Both the position numbers and the translations under genes were made by a program. The notes under the pieces are model-generated. The model saw only the letters and a list, made by a program, of their open reading frames with translations, did not search any database and was not told the DNA's origin. A DNA stretch of 32,000 bases, taken from assembly GCA_040219275.1 (NCBI GenBank), contig JAVJSU010000072.1, positions 56,099-88,098 on the forward strand, in the 5' to 3' direction. Source of the DNA: Aggregatilineales bacterium. GTDB lineage: Bacteria > Chloroflexota > Anaerolineae > Aggregatilineales > Phototrophicaceae. Below are positions 3,994 through 31,793 of this stretch, in pieces (position 1 is the stretch's first letter; each line of letters opens with the position of its first letter).

Positions 3994-4015
3994 ATATTGC
4001 AACACGGGATGTCGT

Positions 4016-8351: not shown

Positions 8352-8366
8352 ATTTGCACCTCCACT

Positions 8367-9080: not shown

Positions 9081-9094
9081 CTGACCTCACTCAT

Positions 9095-11094: not shown

Positions 11095-11241
11095 ACAGTC
11101 TCTTCCACCTTTCTGACATGTTAAAACCCAGCATAGCATGACTGCATCTGGAAGCTTCGTCGATATGTACGCCACGCCCGTTAATTTGTACGTGGCGCTC
11201 GTCAATTTTTCATTCAGGTGAAATTAGCGAGAAAGCGAGGA

Positions 11242-15815: not shown

Positions 15816-15844
15816 ATTATGGCAGTGCAAATGACAGAATAGGG

Positions 15845-16010: not shown

Positions 16011-16036
16011 TCACCAGATATACATACGAGGAAATA

Positions 16037-19756: not shown

Positions 19757-19790
19757 CGTAATTATGGCAGTGGATAAGTCAGATATAGGT

Positions 19791-19956
19791 AATTGTGTCA
19801 TTGTGGCAAATGGCATTTCCACTGCCGCATTTTTAACGGGTTTTTATAGGTCTAAAGAGTTCAAAATTTAGATGATTTTTCGATTATTTGACATAAAACG
19901 TCAAAAATCGATTAAAAATGTGTCATTTAATGTGGCAGTAAACTTGTTGCCATAAT
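19791..19956. repeat. copy 2 of the duplicated intergenic regulatory region
   Basis: See 15845-16010. This copy lies immediately upstream of the primase/dpd operon. Confidence 0.95.
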
Positions 19957-19971
19957 TATCTGAGGTGTCAA

Positions 19972-20979
19972 ATGATAGATGTTGAACGTATCAAAAATCG
20001 TGTTGACTGCCGTGATTTGATTGAGCGTGATCTGGGCAGACCGAAGTATCGGAACAACACACATAGTAAGTACAAATGTCCGCTTCATAATGAAGAGAAG
20101 GGCTACTCACTGGTTGTTTATGCCGATCACTGGAATTGTTTTGGCGCTTGTGGTCATGGTGGCGATGCCATTTCGTGGCTTCAGGAATATCATAGTATGT
20201 CATTTCAGGAAGCATGTGAACGACTTACATCAGGTGATCTACCGATTATCGATCAAGTTAACCGTTCACGACAACCCAAGATCGAGCCTATATCTGAACC
20301 GCCAGATTCTGGTTGGCAAAAGGCAGCACGCAAGATTGCCCAACAAGCAATGGATACGTTGTGGGGTAAGGAAGGTAAACGTGCCTGGCGTTATCTGGAA
20401 GAAGAACGTGGCTTAACCGAAGATACTATCGTTGCGGCTGGTCTGGGATACATTCCGGGTGACTATCGTGAATGGAAAACAATAGAAGGATTGAATGTCC
20501 CGTGCGGAATTACGATTCCATGGTTCGCATCAGGAGCGATTTGGGGTATCAAAGTTCGTCGTGCTACGGGTGAGCAACGCTACCATCAGGTTGGTGGCGG
20601 AAATCTCAAAGGTGGACTCTATTTAGCGGATTCCATCGAACCCGGTTTGGCAATCCTAATCACAGAAGGGGAGTTCGACGCACTAATCGCAAAACAGACT
20701 GGTGCAGGGCTGATCGCCTCAACAGCTATCGGAAGTGCGGCGAATAAACGTATCAATTCACGCTGGTTTCCAAAGTTTATCACTGCACCGAGTATCTTCA
20801 TCCGGATGGATGATGATCATGCGGGGCAGGGGGCTTCAGAAAAAATTGCGGGTTTATCACAGGCGACACAATGTATACAGGTTCCGCAAGGTAAAGATGT
20901 GAATGATTTTTACATACTTGCAGGACACGATGCCGTACATAATTGGATCATTGAGCTTATCGGAGATAATGAGAAATGA
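19972..20979 (+). CDS. DnaG-like primase with CHC2 zinc finger and Toprim domain
   Basis: YKCPLHNEEKGYSLVVYADHWNCFGACGHGGDAISWLQ is a CHC2-type finger. Toprim motifs are ILITEGEFDALIAKQTG and FIRMDDDHAGQGASEKI. Confidence 0.85.
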   Translation: MIDVERIKNRVDCRDLIERDLGRPKYRNNTHSKYKCPLHNEEKGYSLVVYADHWNCFGACGHGGDAISWLQEYHSMSFQEACERLTSGDLPIIDQVNRSRQPKIEPISEPPDSGWQKAARKIAQQAMDTLWGKEGKRAWRYLEEERGLTEDTIVAAGLGYIPGDYREWKTIEGLNVPCGITIPWFASGAIWGIKVRRATGEQRYHQVGGGNLKGGLYLADSIEPGLAILITEGEFDALIAKQTGAGLIASTAIGSAANKRINSRWFPKFITAPSIFIRMDDDHAGQGASEKIAGLSQATQCIQVPQGKDVNDFYILAGHDAVHNWIIELIGDNEK

Positions 20980-21431
20980 TGAAAATCTATGACCATGAAT
21001 TAACAAATCGTCAAATTGAAATTTTGTCCTTTATCTATGATTACCAGACGGATTATGGTTTTGTTCCCAGCATCCGTGAAATTTGTGAAGCTACTGGCAT
21101 CCGCTCGACATCAGCAGTAAGCTACCAGATCAATCGTCTTGTGAGATCAGGATACATCAATAAGGTGGGTGAAGTATCACGTGGCATGATTCTAATGGCG
21201 CCTGCCTATGATGTGATAGGGAAACAAGCTCCTCATGAATGTGATCTCTCAGTATTGCGTTCTGAACTGTTTGCGCTTCGTTTAGAGAATCGGCGTATTC
21301 GGGAACAATATGAGACTCGTGTCAAAAATCTGGAACATGAGCGCAATCAGCTTTCACAGACACTGGCGATGCTGAAGTATCGGGTTATCAAGCAACTTGA
21401 GGGTGTTTTTGAGGAAGAGTTGGCATCATGA
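20976..21431 (+). CDS. LexA-type winged-helix DNA-binding protein lacking an S24 peptidase domain
   Basis: LTNRQIEILSFIYDYQTDYGFVPSIREICEATGIRSTSAVSYQINRLVRSGYI matches the LexA DNA-binding domain. The C-terminus is coiled coil instead of the serine/lysine protease domain. ATGA overlap with the primase stop. Confidence 0.8.
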   Translation: MMKIYDHELTNRQIEILSFIYDYQTDYGFVPSIREICEATGIRSTSAVSYQINRLVRSGYINKVGEVSRGMILMAPAYDVIGKQAPHECDLSVLRSELFALRLENRRIREQYETRVKNLEHERNQLSQTLAMLKYRVIKQLEGVFEEELAS

Positions 21432-21535
21432 ATAGATTTCAAGCTCATCTTCGCTCAATGGACAATTTAATATATACTGTTAGATATTGGTTAGAAATAG
21501 CTAGACGAGATTTTTCTTTTTTTAGATTGGTGTAA
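21428..21535 (+). CDS. small translationally coupled ORF between LexA-like and dpdA-like genes
   Basis: ATGA overlap with the previous stop encodes MNRFQAHLRSMDNLIYTVRYWLEIARRDFSFFRLV (35 aa), ending 3 nt before the dpdA-like start. Too short for the supplied ORF track. Confidence 0.35.
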   Translation: MNRFQAHLRSMDNLIYTVRYWLEIARRDFSFFRLV

Positions 21536-21538
21536 ATT

Positions 21539-23458
21539 ATGCTCCCAAGATTCACAGTTAGCGAAAAATCTCGCAGAGGCCGTTTAGGTTCATTTGAATT
21601 TCAAAATGGTATTAAAAGTATATCTACTCCATTTATGTTTCCTGTTGCATCTACTGTTACAGGAACAACAGCTAATGGTGGTGGCATTTGGCGTTACGTT
21701 CTACAAGCGTATCCTGAAACGTACGACGAAGATGCAAGCGAGCTAAAAAGCCAGTCTCTCATGCGTCGAGGGACTCCGATTCTCTCACAGGTGTTACAAT
21801 TCTTAGATTATGGTGTTAGTCCGTCCAAGGTACAGTATTGGCGGGATGAGTCCATTCGCAAAATGTATAATGATGCACACACCATGGATTACCGTGCGCC
21901 AATTTTTCTGGATTCTGGAGGATTCAAGCTTATGTGGCGCGAAGGACTGGATCTCGATGCCTATGGTATTGATCTCAGTAAGTCCGCTGAAGCTCGGAGT
22001 ATTTCACAGCTTCAGTACGATCTGGGTGCAGACATCATCGCCAGTTTGGATTATCCAATTCCACCTAATCTCGCACCTGCTGAGGCTCGTGAGAGGATGA
22101 AACGTAGCCGAATGAATGCCATCCGAGTAGCTCGTGACTTACGCGACAAGAGGTTTCCCGGCTGGCGTCCGTTCTTTTACATGCCTGTTCACGGGTTGTC
22201 ACCTGAATCCATTACCTATTATATTGAACAATTATTTGGGCGTATAAGATACTATGATCTCGAAGGTGAGCCATTGGGTATTGCTATCGGTTCATTGGTA
22301 CCGTTGCGATTTTCACGTACCAACTTGTATAAGATTATCGAAATTGTTAATGCGGCTGTAAACGCTATACCAGAGCGCTTAAGAGATCAAATTCCTGTTC
22401 ACGTTTTCGGCGTAACAGGTACAGTGCTTCCTTACCTTGCATACTGCGGTGTGGATACATTTGATTCCAGTACATATGTTAAGGAGGCAATTAATCTCAA
22501 GTATATGGACCCTGACACGCGCGCGGGTCATGCCGTGTTAGAGATGACAGAGGATAGCTTTCATTGCCAGTGCGACATTTGTCGGTACCTGAATCTGCGT
22601 GAGGTTCAGGTCGCATTAGCAACGGATAGTAAGGGTAAACCGTTGCCACCACACAATCATCATAAAAGCAAATACTATGCTGATATTGCGTTGCACAATT
22701 TGGAACAAGACATTCAAATTGTCAGGGAGACTAGGGATGCAATTAACCAGGATTGTATGAACGAGTACATCATTCAGATGACAGAGCGCTTTCCCCGAAT
22801 GCGATATGCGCTCGATGCTCTCTGCCAAATCGATGATAGTCTCAAAGGACAAGTATCACGGGTACTACAACCGATCGAAAAACCTCTCAAAAAGACAAGC
22901 CCGAAGATCTACCAAACGTTTACACACACGGCTGACGACTTCGATCTTGCGCGAATGAATGGTAACCTTAGTGCAATTCTCACACCACCGCGCATCGCAC
23001 TTTTATTGCCATGCTCAGCCGATAAACCGTATTCCACCTCCCGAACCCACAGTTATGTGGAGCGGTACTTAGAGGAGTATTTCCCAGAGCAAAGAAACCG
23101 CATTCATAAGGTATCTTTATCAGGCTTATATGGTCCAGTTCCCGAAGATTATGAGTCCTATGAACCAATACTCAATTACAACTATCGACTTACTCCTGAA
23201 AATCAAGCACAGATCAAGTTGGTGTCCAAACGGCTCTTAGATTACTTGGAAGCATACCGGACAGGCTACACACATTATGTTGCCTATGCTACCAGCAAGG
23301 CTTATCGTATTGTCTTTGAACGGGTAGCTGAGGACTTTAAAGAGCTTACTGTATTGCCATCAGCACCAAAGTCGCGTCGACTAACAGAATTCTTTAGGGC
23401 TACGAATATCCAAGAGCTTGTACAATTTATAGACATAGCTCTTAATACTGATCTTTAG
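21539..23458 (+). CDS. dpdA: DpdA-like 7-deazaguanine DNA transglycosylase (TGT superfamily) with ArcS-like C-terminal domain
   Basis: TGT-type APIFLDSGGFKLM, ADIIASLDYPIPPN, FMPVHGLSPESITYYIEQLF and zinc ligands CQCDIC...H. C-terminal LLPCSADKPYSTSRTHSY matches the ArcS signature. Neighbouring genes encode DpdJ/DpdK-like proteins, QueC and YhhQ. Confidence 0.85.
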   Translation: MLPRFTVSEKSRRGRLGSFEFQNGIKSISTPFMFPVASTVTGTTANGGGIWRYVLQAYPETYDEDASELKSQSLMRRGTPILSQVLQFLDYGVSPSKVQYWRDESIRKMYNDAHTMDYRAPIFLDSGGFKLMWREGLDLDAYGIDLSKSAEARSISQLQYDLGADIIASLDYPIPPNLAPAEARERMKRSRMNAIRVARDLRDKRFPGWRPFFYMPVHGLSPESITYYIEQLFGRIRYYDLEGEPLGIAIGSLVPLRFSRTNLYKIIEIVNAAVNAIPERLRDQIPVHVFGVTGTVLPYLAYCGVDTFDSSTYVKEAINLKYMDPDTRAGHAVLEMTEDSFHCQCDICRYLNLREVQVALATDSKGKPLPPHNHHKSKYYADIALHNLEQDIQIVRETRDAINQDCMNEYIIQMTERFPRMRYALDALCQIDDSLKGQVSRVLQPIEKPLKKTSPKIYQTFTHTADDFDLARMNGNLSAILTPPRIALLLPCSADKPYSTSRTHSYVERYLEEYFPEQRNRIHKVSLSGLYGPVPEDYESYEPILNYNYRLTPENQAQIKLVSKRLLDYLEAYRTGYTHYVAYATSKAYRIVFERVAEDFKELTVLPSAPKSRRLTEFFRATNIQELVQFIDIALNTDL

Positions 23459-23481
23459 TTTTTATTGCGAGGAAATTATTA

Positions 23482-26400
23482 ATGTGGGCCAATCTACATC
23501 ACATCCTTTCTCAGATGTTCCATGAACTCAATGACGGGCAACCCCTCGAATCTCCCCAAAAACTATGGCAGAGATATCAACATGAGATACGTGCAATTCT
23601 TGATAATCCAGATGTTGATGACGAAGCTGTTATGGCTGTTAAACGTCATCTAGTTGAGATTGGCCCTGATATTTGGATTCCACAATCTTATGAGGCGGTC
23701 AGGGTATTGCAACAGTTGAAGCAACGTTTTTCCGCCGATGCAGAAGACCCTAATCCCCTCGTCGCGCAGCTTCGAGTTGAGGCACTAATTAGACGGCGGC
23801 CTGTTCGTGATATCCTGAGATCGAGCCTTGAAGAAGGGAAAATATCCCGAATTCTGGCGGATATTGGTCAGAAACACAAATATTCTCGTTTTCAAGTTGA
23901 TGGTTGGCGTCGAATACTCGAAGCTATAGGTGTACTCAAACATGACAATGCCCCTGAAAGTGTGGTGGTGGTGGCCCCGACAGGTTCAGGTAAAACTGAG
24001 GTCTTTCTCTTACCGGTTATTTATCACATTGCGAGTAAGCTCAACTCCAATGATGTGCCACGTTACATTATGATCTATCCACGTGTAGAGTTGCTGAAAG
24101 ATCAAGTTTCACGCAATCTAAAGTATGCTTATCGGGCCGAACAGCAATTTACTGATGGTCAGCAGTCAACATTCAATGGGCATCGGCAGGCCAAACACCC
24201 CTTTGTCGTTGGTATTCAATTTGGTGGTGTGAGATCCACTTATCAAGGGACCTTCAAAGAGAGAAGCCTGTTCGATGAGCAGAAGTATTTTCTTTTAGTA
24301 CCAACCTGTCCCATTTGTGAAGATAACATGCGTGAAGGCAATGAACAATGTGGAAGGTTGAAAGCAGGGCGTGCTAATGGGAGAGTAATTCCTTTGGAGT
24401 GTGACAATCTGAGTTGCGGTGCTGTCTTCCACGTCACTATTGGGAAAAACGATCATGCTGAAGCCCGAATTAAGCCGCACATACTTGTTACAACCATGGA
24501 ATCACTAGATAGACTGTATCTCAATCCCAAATTAGAGAGTTACATTCGCAACATTCAGGGCATCCTTCTTGATGAAGTTCACCTGTTTCACTCCCTATAT
24601 GGTGCACATATCTATAACCTTATTCGCAGAATTGAAGCTTTTCAAGAACATGGACAACCTTTGTCAAAGATTGCAGCGTCGGCAACAGTCTCTAACCCTG
24701 GACGCTTTATATCACGACTATTTTATGGCGTAGATGAGGACTCGCGTGTTGAAGTTCTGGACGCTGAACACTCTCATTACGATTTGGAGGATGCAGGTCT
24801 CGAAACTGTAGTGTTTCTACAAACTACGGAAACAGAAAGCTTTTCGCGAACGCAATCTACTCTGCTCCAGACAATCATGGCTGTTGGACACAGTGTATTG
24901 GGTGCTGATGAGCGGGCAATTGTATTTACAGAGTCTATCGATCATGCTAATCGAACCTACAGGCAACTTCTTGATGAGGAAAACGAAAAACGTTTGTGGC
25001 AGTTCCGAATGGCAGTGAATGATATTAAGTACAACGATGCAACTTGTCCAGCGACAAGCCCATTGGAATGCGACCATATCTATGCTAAAGGCGAATGCTG
25101 GCGTGCAATCCGTGGTGGTGTGCAATGTCATACGAACCTCATTGAGCCGTTTATAATTAATCGACCACTCAATGTCGATGTCATCACTTCGCAAGATCGT
25201 GGCAACTATTGGGATCCGGATGTGATCGTCGCAACTCCCGTACTTGAGGTCGGTGTTGATGATGAACGATTCAAAGCAACCATTCACTATCGTCCGCCTC
25301 AGTCCGTTTTTTCGTTCCTACAGCGCAGAGGCCGCGCTGGTCGTAGTGCAGGTGACACTGCCTATAGCATACTTGTTTTGGGACGTACACCGTCAGATGA
25401 GTTTTATTTCCGTCGCCGCAATCGCCTGATGGATCCAGGTAACTTCGAGTTACCACTCAATCCACGCAATGTTATCATCCAGAGTATGCATGATCAACTC
25501 GAGATTGAACGTGAAACAATTGGAACATATGTCAATCAGATGGGTAATCTTTCGAAGGCGATATTCCGATGGATGATAGAGAAGTATCTACGATGCCAAA
25601 CTTTATCACGGGTATTTGGAGAGAAACTCACTGAACTGCAAAATTCTGTTTTGCGCCAAGACAGTGATCATCAAACCTTGCAACAGGATTTTACGCAGTG
25701 GATCCGTGATCAGCATGATCGTTTCAAACGTCATTTGGATCTTGATCTCTTGCTTGATGAATTGACTTCACGAGTGCCTGTTGATCAACGTGGCAATGTC
25801 ACAAGATTTAGCGAAATGATATATGCCTACCGAAACAAAGAAGGAGTAGATATCGAAGAGATTAAACAACTCGGCAAACAAATTGCTATGGCGCTAGAAA
25901 GCATAATTTTCGACACTGAAGAAGAACTCGAGCAAGAGAAATATAAGCTACTACAGAATCTCATAAGAAAAATTACAAAAGACCATCAATCCATTGAACA
26001 GCTTGATATTGAGGCTGACCAGCGTCTTATCTCAGCACTCTATGACTACTTCAATTTACTTAAAGCACGCATTGTTGATGAGCGCTATCCGGGCACACTA
26101 AATCGAGCCGAAGATATGGTGAAGATAGTTTTACAGTCTCTCTTCTATATTGGTAATGCGTGTTTGTCACGACATTCTCATTGCGAGTCATGTACTCGTT
26201 ATTTTGTGCCAGATGCATATTTTCAGGAAGTTAAGCCAATTATTGTTGAGACATGGACAAACCGTGGCAAGAATCTTCAGGCTGAAATTCACGTAGAAGA
26301 TACAACAAAACTAGCCAACATGCTGTTGCCTTATAAAACATTCTACAGGTATTTCAGCGATCAAGATGCAATGGCTGTTTTGCGTACTACAACCAGTGCA

Positions 26401-27648
26401 GACTGGGTTTCACACGTCCGAAATCAGACCATAGTTCGTCTTGAACCAGGTATTGTCGGCGTACAGCGTAAAGTTTCTGATGAAATTACCGGCATTGAAC
26501 CCAACAAGATACATGTTGTTCCAATCCGACCTGATAAAGAAGGGCAGGGTGTGGTTGGTTTATGCCTCAATTGTTATGCTTTGCACCGTGCAAGTTACAA
26601 CGGTACATGTAGTACATGCGGCAATACTGAGATTACGAAGGTTCGCTTACGCTCTGAAGCAATTGTTCGGAGACAGGCTCTTTTCAAAAATGCGCTTCAA
26701 ATCTCGGATACTTTCTGGTATTGCCATGATCTTACAGGACATGTTCAGATTGATGGTGCTAATGTCCGTTATATTCGACAATGGTTTGATGGAGAGCAGT
26801 TCAAGAGTGTTGGAGGAGATCCTCAAGAATTTACGGCACTATATTATCGTAATGGTGAGGTTCCCTATCCCATTGTCTACGATCTTGTTACGCATGGCAT
26901 TGCTTGGGATTTGAGCAATGTTATTAGCCATATTTTGGGTGATGAGCAACTTCGAGAGACGATTTCACATTATCCGGATAAGAACTTTGATGCTGAGTTA
27001 ATCTTGCATACCGCATCTCATATGCTTCACAAAGCAATTGCCTCAATCAGTGGTGTGAACGACATTACACTTGAGTATGCTATTCAACGCAGTGGTATTG
27101 ATGGACGCGAGCGTGCGATGGTGGTGGTGTGGGAGCGCTACGAAGGTGGTGTAGGTATTTCCGAGATTATTCGAGACACACTGCAAGAAGATCCAATCTT
27201 ATTCTATCGAGAGCTACTCGCATCAGCACTTTGCCCAGTCTTTTATGCTGAGGACACTCAGTGGCCGGGCACCGATGAAAGTCTAAGACGGATTCTTTCA
27301 GAAAGATGGGCACTCGATGGCGAAGATATTCTAATCGATGGGATTATCCGCGAAGTAAAAGCCGAACGTGGTGCAATAGTAGCGCGGCAAGCGGAAGCAT
27401 CTCAAGCATGTAGTGAAGATGATGGTTGCCCTGCCTGTGTCCATGTTACAGTTTGCACTGAGCATATTGAACAGCCCCATAAGGTCAGCCGTTTTGTCGC
27501 AGAAGCCATTATGGATTATTTCCGCCTAACTGTGGATAACACTCGACTCGAGGCGATGAATCGGTATCGTAGAGAGACTCACGGAAGTGAAGCATTCCAA
27601 CTAAGACATAACCTTGAAGAGGATGTGTACGACATTGTGCGCTTTTAG
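23482..27648 (+). CDS. dpdJ: DpdJ-like superfamily 2 helicase with C-terminal DUF1998-type cysteine cluster
   Basis: 1388 aa. Motif I APTGSGKTEV, motif II LDEVH, motif VI QRRGRAGRS, several cysteine pairs (CPTCPICEDN, CESCTRYF, CLNCYALHRASYNGTCSTCG) and terminal DDGCPACVHVTVC. Sits directly between dpdA-like and PLD genes. Confidence 0.78.
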   Translation: MWANLHHILSQMFHELNDGQPLESPQKLWQRYQHEIRAILDNPDVDDEAVMAVKRHLVEIGPDIWIPQSYEAVRVLQQLKQRFSADAEDPNPLVAQLRVEALIRRRPVRDILRSSLEEGKISRILADIGQKHKYSRFQVDGWRRILEAIGVLKHDNAPESVVVVAPTGSGKTEVFLLPVIYHIASKLNSNDVPRYIMIYPRVELLKDQVSRNLKYAYRAEQQFTDGQQSTFNGHRQAKHPFVVGIQFGGVRSTYQGTFKERSLFDEQKYFLLVPTCPICEDNMREGNEQCGRLKAGRANGRVIPLECDNLSCGAVFHVTIGKNDHAEARIKPHILVTTMESLDRLYLNPKLESYIRNIQGILLDEVHLFHSLYGAHIYNLIRRIEAFQEHGQPLSKIAASATVSNPGRFISRLFYGVDEDSRVEVLDAEHSHYDLEDAGLETVVFLQTTETESFSRTQSTLLQTIMAVGHSVLGADERAIVFTESIDHANRTYRQLLDEENEKRLWQFRMAVNDIKYNDATCPATSPLECDHIYAKGECWRAIRGGVQCHTNLIEPFIINRPLNVDVITSQDRGNYWDPDVIVATPVLEVGVDDERFKATIHYRPPQSVFSFLQRRGRAGRSAGDTAYSILVLGRTPSDEFYFRRRNRLMDPGNFELPLNPRNVIIQSMHDQLEIERETIGTYVNQMGNLSKAIFRWMIEKYLRCQTLSRVFGEKLTELQNSVLRQDSDHQTLQQDFTQWIRDQHDRFKRHLDLDLLLDELTSRVPVDQRGNVTRFSEMIYAYRNKEGVDIEEIKQLGKQIAMALESIIFDTEEELEQEKYKLLQNLIRKITKDHQSIEQLDIEADQRLISALYDYFNLLKARIVDERYPGTLNRAEDMVKIVLQSLFYIGNACLSRHSHCESCTRYFVPDAYFQEVKPIIVETWTNRGKNLQAEIHVEDTTKLANMLLPYKTFYRYFSDQDAMAVLRTTTSADWVSHVRNQTIVRLEPGIVGVQRKVSDEITGIEPNKIHVVPIRPDKEGQGVVGLCLNCYALHRASYNGTCSTCGNTEITKVRLRSEAIVRRQALFKNALQISDTFWYCHDLTGHVQIDGANVRYIRQWFDGEQFKSVGGDPQEFTALYYRNGEVPYPIVYDLVTHGIAWDLSNVISHILGDEQLRETISHYPDKNFDAELILHTASHMLHKAIASISGVNDITLEYAIQRSGIDGRERAMVVVWERYEGGVGISEIIRDTLQEDPILFYRELLASALCPVFYAEDTQWPGTDESLRRILSERWALDGEDILIDGIIREVKAERGAIVARQAEASQACSEDDGCPACVHVTVCTEHIEQPHKVSRFVAEAIMDYFRLTVDNTRLEAMNRYRRETHGSEAFQLRHNLEEDVYDIVRF

Positions 27649-28105
27649 AGCTTTGCCGCGGATAATTGCAGAAATGCTTCTGGCAGCACCCAAATCCTCA
27701 GAGATATGTATTGTCAGTCCATGGATTCGTGAAGTTTTGCTGAAGCCTCCGATTATCGTGGGCACAGAAGGTGTGCTAGCTCAACACAAAACACCACTCA
27801 GCGAATTCCTTCATTTGCTTGTGTCTCGTAGGCACGTGCATTTGCACATATTTGTTCGAGAGTTTGACCGCGACATACGCACTATTACTCATGAAGTAAG
27901 GTTAGTGTTCCCTAATTCTATTCATATTCACGAAGAGCCACACCTACATGCCAAAGTGATTGCTACATCAAATAGCATTCTACAGATGTCAGCCAATCTA
28001 ATACCCACTAGCCTCTATCGTAACATCGAAACCTGTGCTATATCGACAAATAGGTACGGCTCTGCACGAACTTACACACATAACGAGCTGAAATTGGTTT
28101 TCTGA
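27614..28105 (+). CDS. dpdK: DpdK-like phospholipase-D-family protein
   Basis: EICIVSPWIREVLL, HLHIFVREFDRDIR, EEPHLHAKVIATSNSILQMSANLI, a single HxK PLD-like motif; overlaps the helicase 3' end. An in-frame TTG at 27653 (MPRIIAEMLLAAPKSSEICIVSPW) is an alternative start. Confidence 0.72.
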   Translation: MKRMCTTLCAFRALPRIIAEMLLAAPKSSEICIVSPWIREVLLKPPIIVGTEGVLAQHKTPLSEFLHLLVSRRHVHLHIFVREFDRDIRTITHEVRLVFPNSIHIHEEPHLHAKVIATSNSILQMSANLIPTSLYRNIETCAISTNRYGSARTYTHNELKLVF

Positions 28106-28109
28106 TATT

Positions 28110-28529
28110 ATGCCAAAGATTTACATCGCAGGTCCATTGTTTAATAGCCACGAGCGACGCTATCTTGAAGAAATAGCTGAAACGTTTGAGACATCTGGCT
28201 ATCCAACTTTTTTGCCGCACAGAGATGCTGGACTGGTTGATCGTTTGGATGAGACTACGCGCCGAACTATATTCCTTGCCGATCTAAAAGCATTAGACGA
28301 ATGCGATATATGTATTGCACTGCTCACTGGTGCAGACCACGACTCGGGTACTTCGGTGGAATTGGGATATATGTATGCGAAGGGTAAACCCTGTTTTGGC
28401 ATCACTGATGATATGAGGTGGATGAATAACATGATTTGGGGAGTATGCGGTTACGGACGGAATATTGCCTCCACCATTGGTGAGTGTATTAAACTCGTCA
28501 ATCAATTCGTTAATCAGGGACTTGTATAG
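28110..28529 (+). CDS. nucleoside 2-deoxyribosyltransferase family protein
   Basis: MPKIYIAGPLFNSHERRYLEEIAETFETSGYPTFLPHRD...CDICIALLTGADHDSGTSVELGYMYAKGKPCFGITDD, a textbook NDT fold signature. Confidence 0.88.
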   Translation: MPKIYIAGPLFNSHERRYLEEIAETFETSGYPTFLPHRDAGLVDRLDETTRRTIFLADLKALDECDICIALLTGADHDSGTSVELGYMYAKGKPCFGITDDMRWMNNMIWGVCGYGRNIASTIGECIKLVNQFVNQGLV

Positions 28530-29193
28530 GACTAAAGGGCATTGTAGAAGCGTCAGCATCAATTCCCTCTTGCCTTCTGAAAAAGCTCACCGTTGCATAG
28601 GTTAGTGGTGTTGCCATTGCTTCGTAAGCAGTCTTGAACAGCCACTGGGTGATAATGGCTGTTGCCAACTCATTGGTTGCGATCGTTCCACCAAATGCCA
28701 CGACGATGAATATCAGTGAATCCAGTCCCTGTCCGACAAAAGTCGATCCAATCGTTCTCGTCCATAACCACTTGCCCTTTGTTAGAGCCTTCATTCTCGT
28801 CAAGACATAGGCGTTCGTAAATTCGCCAATCAGATACGCGATGAAGGATGCCACCAGCAAACGAGGCGTGTATCCTAGAATTCGCTCATACGCCTCTTGT
28901 CCATCCCAGAAACCAGCAGGTGGAAGGAGTTGCCCGGCAATGAGACCGACTACGGCCAATAAGTTGCAAAAGAAGCCTAGCCAGATAACTCGTCGCGCAT
29001 TCTCGTATCCGTACACTTCAGTTAGAATATCGCCAACGATATAGCTAATGGGGAAAATTACTATTCCTGCTGGCATGATTAGGCCGAAAACATCTACTAG
29101 TTTTACGGCTGCGATGTTGGCAGTGATCAATGAGGTGATAAATACACCAACAATAGCTACAAACCAAATTGAATATCCGTTTCTTGTATCCAT
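28510..29193 (-). CDS. yhhQ: YhhQ/VUT-family queuosine precursor transporter
   Basis: TANIAAVKLVDVFGLIMPAGIVIFPISYIVGDILTEVYGYENARRVIWLGF and FVGQGLDSLIFIVVAFGG are diagnostic of the family. Confidence 0.93.
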   Translation of the reverse strand: MDTRNGYSIWFVAIVGVFITSLITANIAAVKLVDVFGLIMPAGIVIFPISYIVGDILTEVYGYENARRVIWLGFFCNLLAVVGLIAGQLLPPAGFWDGQEAYERILGYTPRLLVASFIAYLIGEFTNAYVLTRMKALTKGKWLWTRTIGSTFVGQGLDSLIFIVVAFGGTIATNELATAIITQWLFKTAYEAMATPLTYATVSFFRRQEGIDADASTMPFSPIQVPD

Positions 29194-29210
29194 ATGTTCT
29201 GCTTCCTAGG

Positions 29211-29870
29211 TTATCGATAAGGTATCGGGTCACTTATGCCGAGGGTTTCAAATGCCTTTACCCGTTCAACACACGTTGGGCAAATTCCACATGCCACCTC
29301 TTCACCTGCATAGCATGACCACGTTTTGCTGTAATCTACACCGAGTTCAAGCCCGATACGCAGGATATCTGCCTTCGAGAAGTTGAGAAAAGGTGCCACA
29401 ATATTAATATGACTTGGTGACAACTTATATAGGGCGTTGACGTGATTGACAAATTCCGGAGTTGTATCCCAATATCCGTAGATGTCATGTTTCTGAGCAC
29501 CATAGTATACCTCGTTTACACCTAACGTTTCAGCCCAGGCAATTGCCAATGCGAGAAAAATCATGTTTCTATTTGGTACATAAGTTGTTGGTTGTTCTTC
29601 TGGCAGGACGTTTGTTGCATTAGGAATATCAATCTGTTCGTTGATCAACGATGACATCGACCACAAAGCAGATAGTGATGATATATCAACGACTTTATGT
29701 AGCAGATTGAATACTGAAACATGTTTAGTTGCAAAGCTAACTTCTTTCTTGTGTCGCTGTCCATATTGAAAAGTGATTGCTGCCGGGTTGCGTTTTTGAT
29801 TTAACAGATAATACAGTAGCGTTGTACTATCAAAACCGCCGCTGAAAATTACAATACAATCGATTTGCAA
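29211..29870 (-). CDS. queC: 7-cyano-7-deazaguanine (preQ0) synthase QueC
   Basis: VIFSGGFDSTTLLYYLL PP-loop, ITFQYGQRHKKE, TPEFVNHVNALYKLSP, TWSCYAGEEVACGICPTCVERVKAF zinc site. Confidence 0.93.
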   Translation of the reverse strand: MQIDCIVIFSGGFDSTTLLYYLLNQKRNPAAITFQYGQRHKKEVSFATKHVSVFNLLHKVVDISSLSALWSMSSLINEQIDIPNATNVLPEEQPTTYVPNRNMIFLALAIAWAETLGVNEVYYGAQKHDIYGYWDTTPEFVNHVNALYKLSPSHINIVAPFLNFSKADILRIGLELGVDYSKTWSCYAGEEVACGICPTCVERVKAFETLGISDPIPYR

Positions 29871-29891
29871 TGACTTATCCTTATCTCATAT

Positions 29892-30944
29892 TTAGAGATT
29901 TATCAGTTTCTCTATGATTTCTTGCGGATTATATACGCTTACAGGTGCACGGGTCGAGCCATCTAGGATGCCGATATAATCCTGGGTTGTCTTGACATCA
30001 ACATGTCCCAGATTTTGTCGAATGACCTCGGTTGGGATGCCGGCTAGAAATAGATTCCGTGCGTAGCTCCGACGCAGATCATGCGGTGTGACGTTGGTTG
30101 GAACACCGTTAATCGCGATGGGATAGCGTTTCAACATGCGCTGTACACTGCGGGTCGTCATCTTTTTGTAAGTCGCCACCTGTTTTAGCATATCACCGCG
30201 ACCATCGGACATTTTTGTGAACACAAAACCTGACTCAAGTCCAGCCAGCCAGATTTCTGTGATCTGTCGTGCCCAGAGCATATCGCCGAAAGGCACCATT
30301 CTTGCTTTTGACCCTTTGCCTGACTTTACCCGTACAGCAGGAACACTACCATAAGTCTGATAAAGATCATCGACTTGGAGTTTGACGATTTCACCCTCGC
30401 GTAAGCCGGTTGCCAGCATCAGCGCAATAATTGCCACATCACGCCGCCCACGCAGTGTCGAGACATCGGGTTGCATCATCAGCGCCGCGCCCTGTGCCGG
30501 AGTAAGACGAATGTGTTTGCTGTCTTCTTCATCCTGAACAGTCTGCGTCGTTACTTGTGAGCGTTCAGGGTCAATCGCCCGTATTAACCGCAACTCAAGT
30601 TCATCAGCTTTGGCTTTGATGGTCGCAAAATCCTCGTTGAGAAATTGCTGTTCCAGATAGGCAACTAAAGCCACCCGATGGTCCAGACTTTCAACCAACA
30701 GCTTGTAACTGCGGCGGATGCTGGATAGATGGGCACGCACACTCGATGGCGCGAGCGTGGCCAGCAGATGGTCGCGGTAAGTGCTCAAATCTGGCAGATA
30801 CATTGCATGTCCTGTTTCGGCCAGCCAGTTATTATATCGTGCTACATGCGACACGATATTTTTGTTATCAGAATGTGGTGGTAAACCACCACCTAAAGCT
30901 CGTTGAGTGAGGTCATTTTTAACCATGAGTAGAGTATACCACAA
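29892..30944 (-). CDS. tyrosine recombinase/integrase (XerC/D-like)
   Basis: SAM-like N-terminal region plus catalytic motifs TGLREGEIVKLQ (R), VTPHDLRRSYARNLF (HxxR), LGHVDVKTTQDYIG (Y). Confidence 0.92.
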   Translation of the reverse strand: MWYTLLMVKNDLTQRALGGGLPPHSDNKNIVSHVARYNNWLAETGHAMYLPDLSTYRDHLLATLAPSSVRAHLSSIRRSYKLLVESLDHRVALVAYLEQQFLNEDFATIKAKADELELRLIRAIDPERSQVTTQTVQDEEDSKHIRLTPAQGAALMMQPDVSTLRGRRDVAIIALMLATGLREGEIVKLQVDDLYQTYGSVPAVRVKSGKGSKARMVPFGDMLWARQITEIWLAGLESGFVFTKMSDGRGDMLKQVATYKKMTTRSVQRMLKRYPIAINGVPTNVTPHDLRRSYARNLFLAGIPTEVIRQNLGHVDVKTTQDYIGILDGSTRAPVSVYNPQEIIEKLINL

Positions 30945-31221
30945 AGTGTCGCATTATTCCTATTATACGACACTTTAAGAGGCAGTTTTAGACCCTGTTT
31001 TCTGGCTTTCAAGAGTACGATTTGAGAAGGGTGAAAATTGAGAAAGGCATCGTTTTGTGCGCGTGCTGGTCAGCGGGTCGCCATCTGATTCCCGAACGGT
31101 TGGCCCTGGCTAATCCGTTTTCTTCCCCTTTCGCTTTACGTCTTCTGGCTTCACATCCTCTGCTCAATCCGACCTCTGGCATTTTGTGCCGACTTCCAAC
31201 ACATCAGACCACGCCAGCCCA

Positions 31222-31312
31222 TCCTGTCAAAGCAAAGCTTCGAGGGGATTTTCTTCCTGGCTTGTGCCGCTTACGCTCACCAGAAAATCCCCTCGCCCTA
31301 CGGGTGACAGGA
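31222..31312. repeat. nested inverted repeat, candidate cruciform/hairpin
   Basis: Outer arms TCCTGTCA (31222-31229) / TGACAGGA (31305-31312). Inner perfect 14-bp arms CGAGGGGATTTTCT (31241-31254) / AGAAAATCCCCTCG (31282-31295). Confidence 0.9.
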
Positions 31313-31548
31313 CGTGCGCCCAGACGTGGTTACCCTGATGTGTAAGTCGGCACTTTAACAAATGCAGAGCTGGATATATCCGATCAGACGGATGAACCGT
31401 TAACCAGGCCGTGTTAGCTCGAAAGGGCGCACTGTAAGTTTTCCCGGAGCCACTGTGCCCCGACGGTCTCCTAGAGATGATCGCTCTGATCTGCACTGCC
31501 ATCCCCGCCCCCAATAATCCGATTGGGTGGTGCTAGCCGTCGTGGATG

Positions 31549-31571
31549 CTGATGGAAAGTGACTCCATCAG
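31549..31571. repeat. hairpin in noncoding region upstream of rnhA
   Basis: CTGATGGA (31549-31556) / TCCATCAG (31564-31571), perfect 8-bp arms with a 7-nt loop. Confidence 0.75.
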
Positions 31572-31793
31572 ACTGGAAAAGCCAACGTCTCGAGGTATTC
31601 GCTCATGCGAATCCGGGGCGCATCCAGGCGCGTGAAACACGAATCGGTGTATGTCACAGATACACGGGTTCAGCACACATCGGGCGGTATGCAATACAAC
31701 TTTTCTGACCATTCTCGCACTTCATGATCTACGGATTGTGAGGTGCGTTTTTTTACCTTCGAACATTACGAAAATAATTACGCGAGGTGTGAT

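What the first reader, a model, noticed from the sequence alone, without database searches (positions are those of the whole stretch)
19972..28529. Compact Dpd-type operon with dpdA, dpdJ-like and dpdK-like genes but no recognizable dpdB or dpdC
Studied bacterial Dpd clusters need DpdA with the ATPase-like DpdB to install dPreQ0, and DpdC to form dADG, and carry many restriction-associated genes (dpdD-dpdK). Here only DpdA-, DpdJ- and DpdK-like proteins are visible. DpdB-like function may be dispensable, supplied by the ArcS-like domain, or encoded outside the window. This looks like a reduced or divergent modification/defence configuration on a mobile element.
Basis: partly seen in the sequence, partly recalled or inferred. 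Interest (0 to 1): 0.75.

Follow-up and report, generated by a model that had tools for sequence, protein, structure and literature searches.

The report
Reduced Dpd-like deazaguanine defence cassette
A mobile element in a Chloroflexota genome carries a small gene set that probably marks DNA with a modified guanine, using one fused two-step enzyme, and pairs it with a helicase and a nuclease; this is an undescribed bacterial variant of the known Dpd defence system.

Summary
The genes are real, but "dpdA" is the wrong label. The 639-aa protein (21539-23458) is not a DpdA orthologue. It is an archaeal-ArcTGT-like transglycosylase fused to the catalytic C1 domain of archaeosine synthase (DUF5591). 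All catalytic, zinc-site and ArcS-motif residues are intact. A DpdJ-like YprA-family helicase, a DpdK-like PLD nuclease and a nucleoside deoxyribosyltransferase follow on the same strand. YhhQ and QueC converge from the other strand. The window contains no DpdB, DpdC or DpdD-I.

The set recurs. The fusion sits beside this helicase subfamily in Chloroflexota and Cyanobacteria, and at least 30 of 68 subfamily members share a contig with it. The closest relative of the cassette keeps the fusion, the deoxyribosyltransferase, YhhQ and QueC but has NurA-HerA in place of helicase and PLD. Nine cyanobacterial loci pair the fusion with DUF262 and HEPN proteins. The same helicase subfamily elsewhere sits beside a true DpdC::DpdA fusion plus a DpdB-like protein.

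Best reading: a modular modification-restriction system in which the fusion replaces DpdA, DpdB and DpdC and probably makes deoxyarchaeosine or a related adduct. This is inferred, not shown. The closest described system is BRIGADE of haloarchaea. Verdict: new variant of a known kind, moderately interesting.

The parts
21539..23458 (+). Transglycosylase-ArcS fusion, 639 aa: ArcTGT-like TGT domain (about residues 1-440) plus DUF5591/ArcS C1 domain (about residues 480-610). Proposed DNA 7-deazaguanine modification enzyme.
   Evidence: Pfam TGT 75 bits and DUF5591 55 bits. NCBIfam ArcS 93, TgtA 86, DpdA 15 bits. Invariant across 70-73 homologues: D125 (DSGG), D171, D306, D309, zinc site C343/C345/C348/H386, and ArcS motif P491 C492 K496 P497 Y498 S501 H504. 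Best solved relative ArcTGT 1iq8 (E 1.5e-29); C-terminus matches AF0587 2q07. AF2 pLDDT 92.4. No PUA domain detected.
23482..27648 (+). YprA-family SF2 helicase, DpdJ-like, 1388 aa, with the 4-Cys MZB/DUF1998 module retained. Proposed translocase/sensor of the restriction module.
   Evidence: DpdJ is the best hit, but only over residues 70-671. MZB PF09369 scores 24.7 bits in the C-terminal half. Best solved relative is YprA/MrfA 6znp. Walker A APTGSGKT, DEVH and QRRGRAGR are invariant in A5. 27% identity to canonical DpdJ over its residues 139-671.
27614..28105 (+). Small single-HKD PLD-family nuclease, DpdK-like, 163 aa (a public gene call starts about 20 nt later). Proposed effector nuclease.
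   Evidence: NCBIfam DpdK 29.7 bits, E 4e-7. PADLOC DpdK 33.5 bits, E 7.5e-9, with weak DrmC hits. SPW, LHAK, S..N and N.E are invariant across this protein, five bacterial homologues, three haloarchaeal homologues and two PGAP-annotated DpdK proteins.
28110..28529 (+). Nucleoside 2-deoxyribosyltransferase-family protein, 139 aa. Proposed recycling of 7-deazaguanine base from deoxynucleosides or deoxynucleotides (inferred).
   Evidence: PF05014 89 bits. Solved NDTs 7o62 and 7m5h, E 1e-12 to 1e-13. Homologues sit in the same cassette in L003 (67% identity), L171 (81%) and L172 (65%).
28510..29193 (-). YhhQ/Vut_1 queuosine-precursor (preQ0/preQ1) transporter, 227 aa.
   Evidence: TIGR00697 136 bits, above its 51-bit cut-off. 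Adjacent to the fusion gene in L003, L050, L075, L076, L165, L168, L171 and L172.
29211..29870 (-). QueC, 7-cyano-7-deazaguanine (preQ0) synthase, 219 aa.
   Evidence: TIGR00364 190 bits, above its 150-bit cut-off. Next to YhhQ in L003, L165, L168 and L171.
29892..30944 (-). Tyrosine recombinase/integrase of the carrier element, same strand as QueC and YhhQ with 17-21 nt gaps.
   Evidence: PF00589 83 bits. PHROG integrase. GC content drops from about 0.52 to about 0.42-0.46 between about 11.9 kb and 31 kb.
20976..21431 (+). LexA-N-type winged-helix protein, 107 nt upstream of the fusion gene. Possible regulator or replication initiator of the element; not a recurrent part of the cassette.
   Evidence: PF01726 58 bits. 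PHROG repressor and replication-initiator hits. No homologue in any of the other 81 loci.
19972..20979 (+). CHC2 zinc-finger plus Toprim primase of the mobile element.
   Evidence: Pfam and TIGR01391. PHROG DNA primase. No homologue beside the fusion gene in other loci.

Best explanation
The region 21539-29870 encodes a reduced, modular Dpd-like modification-restriction system. It is carried by an integrative, plasmid-like element of about 19 kb in an Aggregatilineales (Chloroflexota) genome.

Modification module.
- QueC and YhhQ supply preQ0, so the system depends on host CDG or imported preQ0.
- The ArcTGT-like domain of the 639-aa fusion exchanges guanine in DNA for preQ0.
- The fused ArcS C1 domain then converts the nitrile in place to an amidine-type derivative: 2'-deoxyarchaeosine, or a lysine adduct of preQ0.
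- This conversion blocks the reverse exchange. That would explain why neither the DpdB ATPase nor the DpdC hydrolase is needed.
- The deoxyribosyltransferase-family enzyme recovers the deazaguanine base from deoxynucleosides or deoxynucleotides released by DNA turnover.

Restriction module.
- The DpdJ-like YprA helicase and the DpdK-like PLD nuclease act on DNA that lacks the mark.

What is shown: gene content, intact catalytic motifs, recurrent linkage of the genes, and exchange of whole modules between related loci.

What is inferred: DNA rather than tRNA as the substrate, the chemical product, the reason DpdB is dispensable, the role of the deoxyribosyltransferase, and how self is told from non-self.
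For: Enzyme integrity. The catalytic Asp residues, the zinc site and the full ArcS motif PC-x3-KPY-x2-S-x2-H are invariant in 70-73 homologues. The AF2 model is confident. The protein has the TGT fold, closest to ArcTGT.

Operon structure. The gaps and overlaps between the four + strand genes are 23 nt, an overlap of 35 nt, and 4 nt.

Linkage of fusion, helicase and PLD. All three are seen together in the window, L003, L004, L008, L050, L165, L166 and L168. Fusion plus helicase is seen in L009, L011, L012, L017 and L172.

Reverse association. The helicase subfamily has 68 full-length members, after which scores fall sharply to canonical DpdJ. Thirty of the 68 share a contig with a fusion homologue. 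This rests on matching contig lengths, plus loci.

Link of the helicase to deazaguanine DNA modification. In L164 and L169 the same helicase subfamily sits next to a DUF6884::DpdA fusion (38% identity to Enterobacter DpdA, E 1e-100) and a DndB-family protein with a DGQHR motif.

Module swapping. L171 has the fusion at 77% identity, YhhQ at 93%, the deoxyribosyltransferase at 81% and QueC at 72%, but NurA-HerA in place of helicase and PLD. Nine cyanobacterial loci have DUF262 plus HEPN instead. L017 has a DUF4365 protein in place of the PLD.

No DpdB/DndB-type protein was found within 10 kb of the fusion gene in any of the bacterial loci.

Literature.
- ArcS adds lysine to preQ0 in RNA, nucleoside and nucleotide, and the adduct blocks the reverse ArcTGT reaction (PMC11298593).
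- The DUF5591-only ArcS2 of Vibrio phage nt-1, expressed with DpdA2, gives dG+ in E. coli plasmid DNA. DpdA2 alone inserts preQ0 without DpdB (PMC10516641).
Against: No biochemical or nucleoside data exist for any member of this fusion family.

The fusion is closer to tRNA enzymes (ArcTGT, ArcS) than to any DpdA.

In about 30 Poribacteria genomes it is a stand-alone gene among housekeeping genes such as SHMT, a Mur ligase, ArgD and cyclophilin. So it does not always need a restriction partner and could have another substrate.

No RaSEA-type radical SAM partner, which archaea need to finish G+, was seen in the window.

Haloarchaeal loci combine the fusion with a separate short TGT, a DUF6884 protein and a GHKL ATPase. 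So the fusion may not always be the enzyme that inserts the base.

How a helicase plus a PLD nuclease alone would read the mark is unknown, even for canonical Dpd.

The genome is a MAG, so genes elsewhere cannot be excluded.
Confidence: 0.6

Rival explanations
1. Two unrelated functions sit side by side. The fusion, with QueC, YhhQ and the deoxyribosyltransferase, modifies the element's or host's DNA only as an anti-restriction shield, as phage DpdA does. The helicase and PLD are an independent DISARM/Dpd-type innate defence that does not read the mark.
For: The fusion occurs with several different neighbours and also alone. The helicase subfamily also occurs without the fusion. Deazaguanine modification protects phage DNA from restriction (PMC6884629).
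Against: The genes are tightly packed on one strand. At least 30 of 68 helicase subfamily members share a contig with the fusion, and three of the six members checked that had no listed fusion partner sit next to DpdA/DpdB-type genes instead. The swapped partners (NurA-HerA, DUF262-HEPN, DUF4365) occupy the same position immediately downstream of the modification gene, as in restriction-modification systems.
Confidence: 0.17
2. The fusion is a tRNA enzyme, a bacterial ArcTGT and ArcS in one protein, that makes archaeosine-type tRNA modification. The neighbouring defence genes are coincidental island cargo.
For: The best profile and structure matches are ArcTGT and ArcS. Poribacteria carry it in a conserved housekeeping context.
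Against: No PUA or C2 tRNA-binding domain was detected. The protein ends soon after the C1 domain, like the viral DNA-acting ArcS2 (PMC10516641). It is repeatedly linked to DNA helicases and nucleases and is carried on a mobile element. The helicase subfamily pairs interchangeably with true DpdA/B/C genes.
Confidence: 0.1
3. It is an ordinary Dpd system whose dpdB and dpdC (and perhaps a true dpdA) lie elsewhere in the genome.
For: The genome is an incomplete MAG and only 32 kb was examined. Phage and mobile-element systems often rely on host genes; here FolE, QueD and QueE must come from the host.
Against: Apart from distant relatives of DpdJ and DpdK, no orthologue of a canonical Dpd protein is present. 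The low-GC stretch that marks the element lies wholly inside the window. The arrangement without DpdB recurs across Chloroflexota and Cyanobacteria, and no DpdB/DndB was found within 10 kb in any bacterial locus.
Confidence: 0.05
4. The TGT-family enzyme attaches a 7-deazapurine to a protein rather than to nucleic acid, as reported for Cap9/Cap10 of type IV CBASS.
For: A precedent exists for a TGT-family enzyme and a QueC-like enzyme remodelled for nucleobase-protein conjugation in a defence system (abstract of 10.1101/2025.04.06.647259).
Against: The QueC here passes the equivalog cut-off for true QueC (190 against 150 bits). QatC-type scores are low. It sits with a preQ0 transporter. The fusion keeps the canonical TGT catalytic and zinc residues and an ArcS nitrile-modifying motif. 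No CBASS genes are present.
Confidence: 0.04

Closest known systems
Canonical bacterial Dpd system (dpdA-K; Salmonella Montevideo type; Thiaville 2016, Yuan 2018, Gedara 2023)
   Same: Both combine a 7-deazaguanine pathway with a TGT-superfamily enzyme. Both have an adjacent YprA-family helicase and a small PLD nuclease (DpdJ-DpdK are neighbours in the Enterobacter cluster). Both have preQ0 supply genes nearby and are carried on mobile DNA.
   Different: The transglycosylase is not a DpdA orthologue. There is no DpdB, DpdC or DpdD-I. The helicase matches only the core of DpdJ and keeps the 4-Cys DUF1998 cluster, which canonical DpdJ has lost according to 10.1101/2025.09.15.676423. The predicted product is amidine-type (ArcS chemistry), not dADG.
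BRIGADE systems of haloarchaea (YprA helicase preprint, 10.1101/2025.09.15.676423)
   Same: Both have a Dpd-like architecture with a 7-deazaguanine gene cluster, a Dpd-branch YprA helicase and a small PLD nuclease. The haloarchaeal loci I retrieved contain homologues of the same fusion (31-36% identity), of the helicase and of the PLD.
   Different: BRIGADE is reported only from halophilic archaea. It usually has two YprA helicases, one of them ARMADA-like, plus DpdG and DpdHI/BrxC. The haloarchaeal loci also carry a separate short TGT, a DUF6884 protein and a GHKL ATPase. The window has one helicase and none of these extra genes.
Phage and viral DpdA2 plus ArcS2 (Vibrio phage nt-1; Sulfolobus virus STSV2)
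   Same: A DNA transglycosylase works together with a DUF5591-only ArcS catalytic domain, with no DpdB and no PUA domain. dG+ has been shown in DNA for nt-1 (PMC10516641). The C-terminal domain here weakly matches the STSV1/2 proteins (33% identity over 109 aa).
   Different: In the viruses the two activities are separate proteins and serve as anti-restriction in viral genomes. Here they are fused, cellular or mobile-element-borne, and linked to nuclease and helicase modules. The fusion was not found in 50,697 phage records or in IMG/VR.
Archaeal tRNA archaeosine pathway (ArcTGT, ArcS, RaSEA)
   Same: This is the closest sequence and structure relative of both domains. The catalytic Asp residues, the zinc site and the ArcS C1 motif are the same.
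   Different: There are no C2 or PUA tRNA-binding domains and no RaSEA partner in view. The host is bacterial, and the context is a mobile element and defence genes.
DISARM (DrmA/DrmB/DrmC plus methyltransferase)
   Same: Both have a YprA-family helicase with DUF1998, a PLD nuclease and a DNA-modifying enzyme. There are weak DrmA and DrmC profile hits.
   Different: Here the helicase and the DUF1998 module are one protein. There is no methyltransferase and no DrmD or DrmE. DpdJ and DpdK profiles score much higher than DrmA and DrmC.

Membership tests
Canonical Dpd system | DpdA-family DNA-guanine transglycosylase (NF041059, cut-off 200 bits) | tested here: not met
   15.2 bits, E 0.007. tblastn with Enterobacter DpdA gives E above 1. 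hhalign gives 73% probability over 93 columns. A profile of the family does not reach DpdA structure 7ui4.
Canonical Dpd system | DpdB (DndB/ParB-like DGQHR ATPase) next to the transglycosylase | tested here: not met
   No Pfam or NCBIfam hit in the ten ORFs spanning 18137-30944. No tblastn hit at E up to 10 anywhere in the window. No DG.[QH]R motif in any window ORF. No hit in the bacterial fusion loci.
Canonical Dpd system | DpdC (DUF6884) for dADG formation | tested here: not met
   No DUF6884 hit. tblastn with a haloarchaeal DUF6884 protein gives only noise, E 1 or higher.
Canonical Dpd system | DpdJ helicase (NF041067, cut-off 800 bits) | tested here: inconclusive
   DpdJ is the best-scoring family but at 220 bits, over residues 70-671 only. 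PADLOC DpdJ scores 241 bits. Identity to PGAP-annotated DpdJ proteins is 26-27% over about 45% of the length. This is a related subfamily, not an equivalog.
Canonical Dpd system | DpdK PLD nuclease (NF041068, cut-off 100 bits) | tested here: inconclusive
   29.7 bits, E 4e-7. PADLOC scores 33.5 bits. It shares the invariant motifs SPW, LHAK, S..N and N.E with two annotated DpdK proteins.
Canonical Dpd system | DpdD, E, F, G, H, I restriction genes | tested here: not met
   tblastn with the Enterobacter proteins finds nothing for DpdD, E, G, H or I. DpdF gives one 42-residue match (E 1.6e-4) to the generic helicase C-terminal motif inside the DpdJ-like helicase.
Canonical Dpd system | dPreQ0 or dADG present in genomic DNA, and restriction of unmodified DNA | not testable with these tools
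   Needs nucleoside LC-MS/MS and transformation or phage assays.
TGT superfamily (active transglycosylase) | Catalytic Asp pair, substrate-binding Asp and the CxCxxC...H zinc site | tested here: met
   D125, D171, D306/D309, C343, C345, C348 and H386 are invariant in 70-73 sequences. They align to the corresponding ArcTGT 1iq8 segments (VDSGSFQ, LDIP, GVDLFDSA, CSCPVC...H).
ArcS / viral ArcS2 (DUF5591 C1 domain) | C1 motif PC-x3-KPY-x2-S-x2-H (as quoted in PMC10516641) | tested here: met
   Residues 491-504 read PCSADKPYSTSRTH. P491, C492, K496, P497, Y498, S501 and H504 are invariant.
ArcTGT / ArcS (tRNA enzymes) | C-terminal C2 and PUA tRNA-binding domains | tested here: not met
   Pfam finds only TGT and DUF5591. 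The protein ends about 35 residues after the C1 domain. Scores fall far below the equivalog cut-offs: TgtA 86 of 350 bits, ArcS 93 of 440 bits.
YprA/MrfA helicase family | SF2 core plus the C-terminal 4-Cys Zn-binding MZB/DUF1998 domain | tested here: met
   DEAD and Helicase_C domains. MZB scores 24.7 bits against a 24.2-bit cut-off. Best PDB match is YprA 6znp, E 1.5e-16. C1251, C1316 and C1319 are invariant in A5.
BRIGADE (haloarchaeal) | Two YprA helicases (one ARMADA-like), DpdG, DpdHI/BrxC, a PLD nuclease and a deazaguanine cluster; found in halophilic archaea | tested here: not met
   The window has one helicase. DruE and DrmA profiles score about 50 bits against 241 for DpdJ. There are no DpdG/H/I hits. 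The host is Chloroflexota. Only the fusion, the Dpd-branch helicase and the PLD are shared.
DISARM | DrmA and DrmB as separate genes, DrmC, and a DNA methyltransferase | tested here: not met
   The helicase and the DUF1998 module are fused. No methyltransferase lies in or next to the cassette.

The most novel reading that the evidence does not exclude
A single fused enzyme (ArcTGT-like plus ArcS C1) writes a base not yet reported in cellular DNA, either 2'-deoxyarchaeosine or a lysine adduct of preQ0. It does so without DpdB or DpdC. The mark serves as the self label for a family of interchangeable nuclease modules: DpdJ/DpdK-like, NurA-HerA, and DUF262-HEPN. A dedicated deoxyribosyltransferase-type enzyme recycles the base. 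The same fusion would then also act as a stand-alone ('orphan') epigenetic DNA writer in Poribacteria.
Probability: 0.3. Interest if true: 0.8.

Novelty: new variant of a known kind. Interest (0 to 1): 0.6.

Why it matters
Three points make this worth following up.

1. If the fusion acts on DNA, it is a one-protein route to a hypermodified guanine in cellular genomes. It would show that the ATPase DpdB and the hydrolase DpdC of the studied Dpd system can both be replaced by a covalently attached second catalytic domain.

2. The cassette has only five to six genes, against eleven or more in canonical Dpd. Its restriction module is naturally swapped between close relatives. That makes it a much simpler system in which to ask how deazaguanine marks are read. 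This question is still open even for the canonical system.

3. Current tools miss it. The PADLOC TGT model scores E 0.009 and the NCBIfam DpdA model scores 15 bits. Published Dpd surveys required dpdA and dpdB together. So this branch, which holds 86 clusters at 50% identity (E up to 1e-30) in a library of 1.84 billion proteins, is not counted.

Tried and rejected
- Metagenome scan with a helicase alignment (A5). The back-translated patterns were generic Walker A and helicase motifs, and the 80 loci returned held only unrelated SF2 helicases with no fusion or PLD. I replaced it with a protein homologue search plus contig look-ups.
- Phage and viral origin. tblastn found the fusion in none of 50,697 phage records, and the IMG/VR scan confirmed no relative. 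Only the C-terminal domain weakly matches archaeal virus ArcS2-type proteins.
- Element ends. No direct repeat of 10 nt or more links the two GC-shift boundaries (one search gave only chance-level pairs). No tRNA or tmRNA was found. No Rfam family reached its gathering score, so there is no preQ1 riboswitch call.
- Promoter and terminator scans were at shuffle level and told me nothing.
- Foldseek confirmed the TGT fold, but the top 50 hits were saturated with tRNA TGT entries, so it could not tell DNA-acting from tRNA-acting enzymes.
- I asked whether the cyanobacterial DUF262 partner is a hidden DpdB. It matches GmrSD_N, not DndB or DpdB, has no BLAST similarity to four DpdB/DndB queries, and occupies the PLD's position in L011. 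I therefore treat it as an effector or sensor.
- The supplementary table of the YprA preprint was truncated in the held copy. I could not check whether this helicase subfamily is listed there.

Full report
**1. What is in the window**

The window comes from a metagenome-assembled Aggregatilineales bacterium (Chloroflexota). The 639-aa protein is identical to an NCBI MAG protein on an 88-kb contig.

GC content falls from about 0.52 to about 0.42-0.46 between roughly 11.9 kb and 31 kb. That stretch encodes:
- an AbiU2-type HEPN protein;
- a ParM-like partition protein;
- a MerR-type protein;
- a DUF3987 primase/helicase-C protein;
- a CHC2-Toprim primase;
- a LexA-N winged-helix protein;
- a tyrosine integrase at the right end.

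It has no phage structural genes. I read it as an integrative, plasmid- or satellite-like element of about 19 kb. I could not find its att repeats, and there is no tRNA.

**2. Checking the observation**

On the + strand, tightly packed (23-nt gap, 35-nt overlap, 4-nt gap), lie four genes:
- 21539-23458: TGT plus DUF5591, 639 aa.
- 23482-27648: a 1388-aa DEAD/DEAH helicase.
- 27614-28105: a 163-aa PLD-like protein.
- 28110-28529: a nucleoside 2-deoxyribosyltransferase-family protein.

Converging from the minus strand are YhhQ (28510-29193), QueC (29211-29870) and the integrase.

The helicase's best family is DpdJ: NCBIfam 220 bits, PADLOC 241 bits. The PLD's best family is DpdK: E 4e-7 and E 7.5e-9. 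Both are far below the NCBIfam equivalog cut-offs of 800 and 100 bits. The DpdJ model aligns only to helicase residues 70-671.

I fetched a complete canonical Dpd cluster from Enterobacter plasmid pPOL9A (dpdE-F-G-H-I-J-K-D, then dpdB and dpdA). I searched every one of its proteins against all six frames of the window. Only the DpdJ helicase core matched (27% identity, E 2e-30). DpdB gave nothing even at E up to 10. DpdA and DpdK were at noise level by BLAST. No window ORF has a DG.[QH]R motif.

The coordinates are not quite right. They wrongly include the primase and the wHTH gene, which never recur next to the cassette. They omit YhhQ and QueC, which do recur.

**3. The "DpdA" is a different enzyme**

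The 639-aa protein scores 86 bits on the archaeal TgtA model and 93 bits on ArcS alpha, but only 15 bits on DpdA.

A profile of the family finds P. horikoshii ArcTGT (1iq8, E 1.5e-29). Its C-terminal domain finds AF0587 (2q07), which I take, from memory, to be an ArcS-type protein. The profile does not reach the solved DpdA structure 7ui4, which is present in the library. hhalign against canonical DpdA aligns only 93 columns.

Seventy to 73 homologues keep the following residues invariant:
- the DSGG aspartate (D125);
- D171;
- D306 and D309 (GVDTFDSS);
- the zinc site C343, C345, C348 and H386.

These align to the corresponding ArcTGT segments in the HMMER alignment.

Residues 491-504 read PCSADKPYSTSRTH. 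This is a perfect copy of the ArcS C1 motif PC-x3-KPY-x2-S-x2-H quoted in PMC10516641, and all seven motif residues are invariant.

No PUA or C2 domain is detected. The AF2 model is confident, with pLDDT 92.4 and pTM 0.90, and has the TGT fold.

The protein is therefore an apparently active ArcTGT-like transglycosylase fused to the ArcS catalytic core, without the tRNA-binding domains. That is the same minimal ArcS form that viruses use on DNA (ArcS2).

**4. Distribution and neighbourhoods of the fusion**

The family is real but uncommon:
- at least 448 clusters at 90% identity reach E below 1e-5;
- 86 clusters at 50% identity reach E up to 1e-30 among 1.84 billion representatives.

One hundred and four genome loci were found and 79 were retrieved. 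They come from Chloroflexota, Cyanobacteria, about 30 Poribacteria and about 22 haloarchaea, plus one Symbiobacteriaceae and one Verrucomicrobiia genome. No phage or IMG/VR record encodes the fusion.

I clustered the ORFs within 10 kb of the fusion gene and annotated representatives. The patterns were:

- **(a) Fusion, then helicase, then PLD.** This matches the window. It occurs in L003, L004, L008 and L050. L009 and L012 are cut by contig ends. In L017 a DUF4365 protein replaces the PLD. L003 also has the deoxyribosyltransferase, YhhQ and QueC, so it is fully syntenic with the window.
- **(b) Fusion, then DUF262 (GmrSD_N), then HEPN.** This occurs in nine cyanobacterial loci. One of them, the Spirulina locus L011, also has the helicase: fusion, helicase, DUF262, HEPN.
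- **(c) Fusion, then NurA, then HerA.** This occurs in L005.
- **(d) A DISARM-like trio.** L070 has a DUF1998 protein, a helicase and a UvrD helicase.
- **(e) Haloarchaea.** Twenty loci carry the fusion (sometimes two copies) together with a short TGT, a DUF6884 (DpdC-like) protein and a GHKL ATPase. Some also have a homologous helicase plus PLD.
- **(f) Poribacteria.** The fusion is a stand-alone gene in a conserved housekeeping context.

**5. Reverse test from the helicase**

A homologue search with the helicase returns 68 full-length relatives (31-88% identity). Scores then drop sharply to proteins that NCBI names DpdJ (E 1e-25 to 1e-33, about 45% coverage).

Thirty of the 68 lie on a contig that also carries a fusion homologue. 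I infer this from identical longest-contig lengths, and from loci L004, L011, L017, L050, L165, L166 and L168.

I looked up six members with no listed fusion partner:
- L165, L166 and L168 do have the fusion next door. L165 and L168 show the full five-gene set: QueC and YhhQ on one strand, then helicase, PLD and fusion on the other. This holds at only 31-32% identity to the window.
- L164 and L169 instead carry a DUF6884::TGT fusion whose TGT part is a true DpdA (38% identity to Enterobacter DpdA, E 1e-100), plus a DndB-family protein with a DGQHR motif.
- L167 shows a DndB-family protein, a UvrD helicase and a PD-(D/E)xK nuclease.

So this helicase subfamily is specifically tied to 7-deazaguanine DNA-modification genes. 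It pairs either with DpdC::DpdA plus a DpdB-like protein, or with the ArcTGT::ArcS fusion and no DpdB.

**6. Module swapping**

The closest relative of the window's cassette is L171. It keeps the fusion (77% identity), the deoxyribosyltransferase (81%), YhhQ (93%) and QueC (72%). It has NurA-HerA exactly where the window has helicase and PLD.

L172 has YhhQ, fusion, helicase and deoxyribosyltransferase.

The fusion, with the deoxyribosyltransferase, YhhQ and QueC in this lineage, is therefore the constant module. The nuclease/helicase part is the exchangeable module. This is the pattern expected of a modification gene with alternative restriction partners.

The PLD shares the invariant motifs SPW, LHAK, S..N and N.E with its bacterial homologues, with haloarchaeal homologues and with two annotated DpdK proteins.

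The helicase keeps Walker A, DEVH and motif VI. It also keeps several Cys clusters, including the C-terminal MZB/DUF1998 module.

**7. Mechanism**

Shown:
- intact catalytic motifs in all six proteins, or family scores above the curated cut-offs for QueC and YhhQ;
- operon packing;
- recurrent linkage;
- modular exchange.

Inferred:
1. QueC and YhhQ provide preQ0. FolE, QueD and QueE are absent from the element, so the host must provide CDG or preQ0 must be imported.
2. The TGT domain exchanges G for preQ0 in DNA.
3. The fused ArcS domain converts the nitrile to dG+ or a lysine adduct. ArcS from T. kodakarensis adds lysine to preQ0 in RNA fragments, in the nucleoside and in the nucleotide, and the adduct blocks the reverse ArcTGT reaction (PMC11298593). 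A fused second step could therefore pull the exchange forward without the DpdB ATPase. This is my proposal, not a published result.
4. The deoxyribosyltransferase-family enzyme recovers free base from deoxynucleosides or deoxynucleotides.
5. The helicase and the PLD nuclease degrade unmarked DNA.

Precedents. Phage nt-1 DpdA2 alone inserts dPreQ0 in E. coli, and adding its DUF5591-only ArcS2 yields dG+ (PMC10516641). In that paper's Table 3, dPreQ0 falls from 926 to 0 per million nucleotides when ArcS is added, while only 4 dG+ appear. That leaves room for an unmeasured product.

**8. Caveats and rivals**

Nothing about this family has been tested experimentally.
- Its nearest relatives are tRNA enzymes.
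- Poribacteria carry it alone among housekeeping genes.
- Haloarchaea pair it with a separate short TGT.
- No RaSEA partner is in view.
- The genome is a MAG.

I rate the coupled modification-restriction reading at about 0.6. The rivals are:
- independent anti-restriction modification next to an unrelated defence pair, about 0.17;
- a tRNA enzyme, about 0.1;
- canonical Dpd with genes elsewhere, about 0.05;
- protein deazaguanylation as in type IV CBASS, about 0.04.

**9. Comparison with what is known, and novelty**

It works like Dpd, but it fails membership on DpdA, DpdB, DpdC and DpdD-I. It is only a distant relative on DpdJ and DpdK.

The closest published description is BRIGADE, in the 2025 YprA-helicase preprint. 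BRIGADE consists of Dpd-like systems with a deazaguanine cluster and PLD nucleases, reported exclusively from haloarchaea, with two YprA helicases and DpdG/HI. [quoted passage not shown]

The GATOR-GC survey of Dpd islands required dpdA and dpdB together, so it could not have found this type. A BREX-diversity paper notes DpdB-less TGT modules in another system.

None of the papers retrieved by five full-text searches describes the following:
- the ArcTGT::ArcS fusion as a bacterial DNA-modification candidate;
- its pairing with a single DpdJ-like helicase and a DpdK-like nuclease;
- the swap to NurA-HerA or to DUF262-HEPN;
- the link to a deoxyribosyltransferase.

I therefore class it as a new variant of a known kind, with moderate interest (0.6). 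It is a compact, testable system. It could reveal a new cellular DNA base and a DpdB-independent insertion route. But the general concept of deazaguanine restriction-modification with a YprA helicase and a PLD nuclease is established, and the missing DpdB has precedents.

Noticed in passing
window 15815-16011 and 19760-19957: An intergenic segment of about 200 nt is present twice (87-90% identity). One copy lies upstream of the 339-aa ORF at 16037 and the other upstream of the primase at 19972. It contains several TGGCA...TGCCA-type inverted motifs and a hairpin followed by a T run. It looks like a duplicated promoter/operator region of the element. A public short-read assembly of the same element breaks inside the second copy (L170 starts 136 nt before the primase).
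   Followed up: partly
window 12174-12935 (-) and 16037-17056 (+): The same element carries other candidate defence genes. One is an AbiU2-type HEPN protein (PF18734, 53 bits). The other is a 339-aa protein with a weak AbiJ N-terminal-domain-3 hit and a C-terminal part matching an unknown PHROG. The element therefore looks like a small multi-defence island.
   Followed up: partly
window 12939-14632 (-): A ParM/actin-like partition protein (422 aa; ALP_N hit, PHROG 'partition protein') sits next to an acidic 141-aa protein on an element that also has an integrase. A plasmid-type segregation module on an integrated element is unusual.
   Followed up: no
window 758-10372 (-): Five consecutive large ORFs (747, 570, 881, 237 and 425 aa) in the higher-GC host region have no Pfam hit at all. 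PADLOC gives only one weak hit (mad8, E 9e-6). Two LuxR-type response-regulator-like ORFs lie next to them (10459-11871).
   Followed up: partly
window 30945-31795: About 850 nt between the integrase and an RNase HI-like ORF (starting at 31796) have no convincing ORF. The region is GC-rich, and no Rfam family matches even at E up to 1. The independent assembly L170 ends at about window position 31406. The element's attachment site may lie here.
   Followed up: partly
L171:10001-17445 (Logan SRR31719415 contig): The closest relative of the cassette (fusion 77%, YhhQ 93%, deoxyribosyltransferase 81%, QueC 72% identity) has NurA plus HerA in place of helicase plus PLD. Just upstream it has a 1301-aa Eco57I-type N6-methyltransferase/restriction protein and a topoisomerase.
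   Followed up: partly
L006, L007, L011, L013-L016, L018, L019 (cyanobacteria): In nine cyanobacterial genomes the fusion gene is followed by a 366-aa DUF262/GmrSD_N protein and a 211-aa HEPN (MAE_28990-type) protein. This looks like a GmrSD-type sensor-effector pair with an RNase-type domain in place of the usual DUF1524 nuclease.
   Followed up: partly
L164:3243-11960 and L169:2657-11948: A DUF6884::DpdA (DpdC-DpdA) fusion protein of 696-805 aa lies with a 276-aa unknown protein, a DndB-family DGQHR protein and the same helicase subfamily. This is another reduced Dpd configuration. It was not described in the papers I read.
   Followed up: partly
L021-L049, L051, L077, L081 (Poribacteria): About 30 Poribacteria genomes carry the fusion as a single gene in conserved synteny with housekeeping genes (ArgD, Fe-ADH, SHMT, a Mur ligase, cyclophilin, a lysine-2,3-aminomutase-like radical SAM protein). 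No nuclease or helicase partner is present. It could be an orphan DNA writer or have a different substrate.
   Followed up: partly
L001 (Haladaptatus plasmid) and about 20 haloarchaeal loci: These loci carry one or two copies of the fusion together with a 352-aa short TGT, a DUF6884 protein and a 518-aa GHKL (HATPase_c_3) ATPase. A GIY-YIG-like protein, STAND NTPases and a helicase plus PLD are often present too. The GHKL ATPase sits where canonical clusters have DpdB.
   Followed up: partly
PMC10516641, Table 3 (read): When nt-1 ArcS is co-expressed with DpdA2 in E. coli, dPreQ0 falls from 926 (or 1607) to 0 (or 11) per million nucleotides, but only 4-7 dG+ appear. Most of the inserted base is unaccounted for. 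This would fit an unmeasured adduct such as preQ0-lysine.
   Followed up: no
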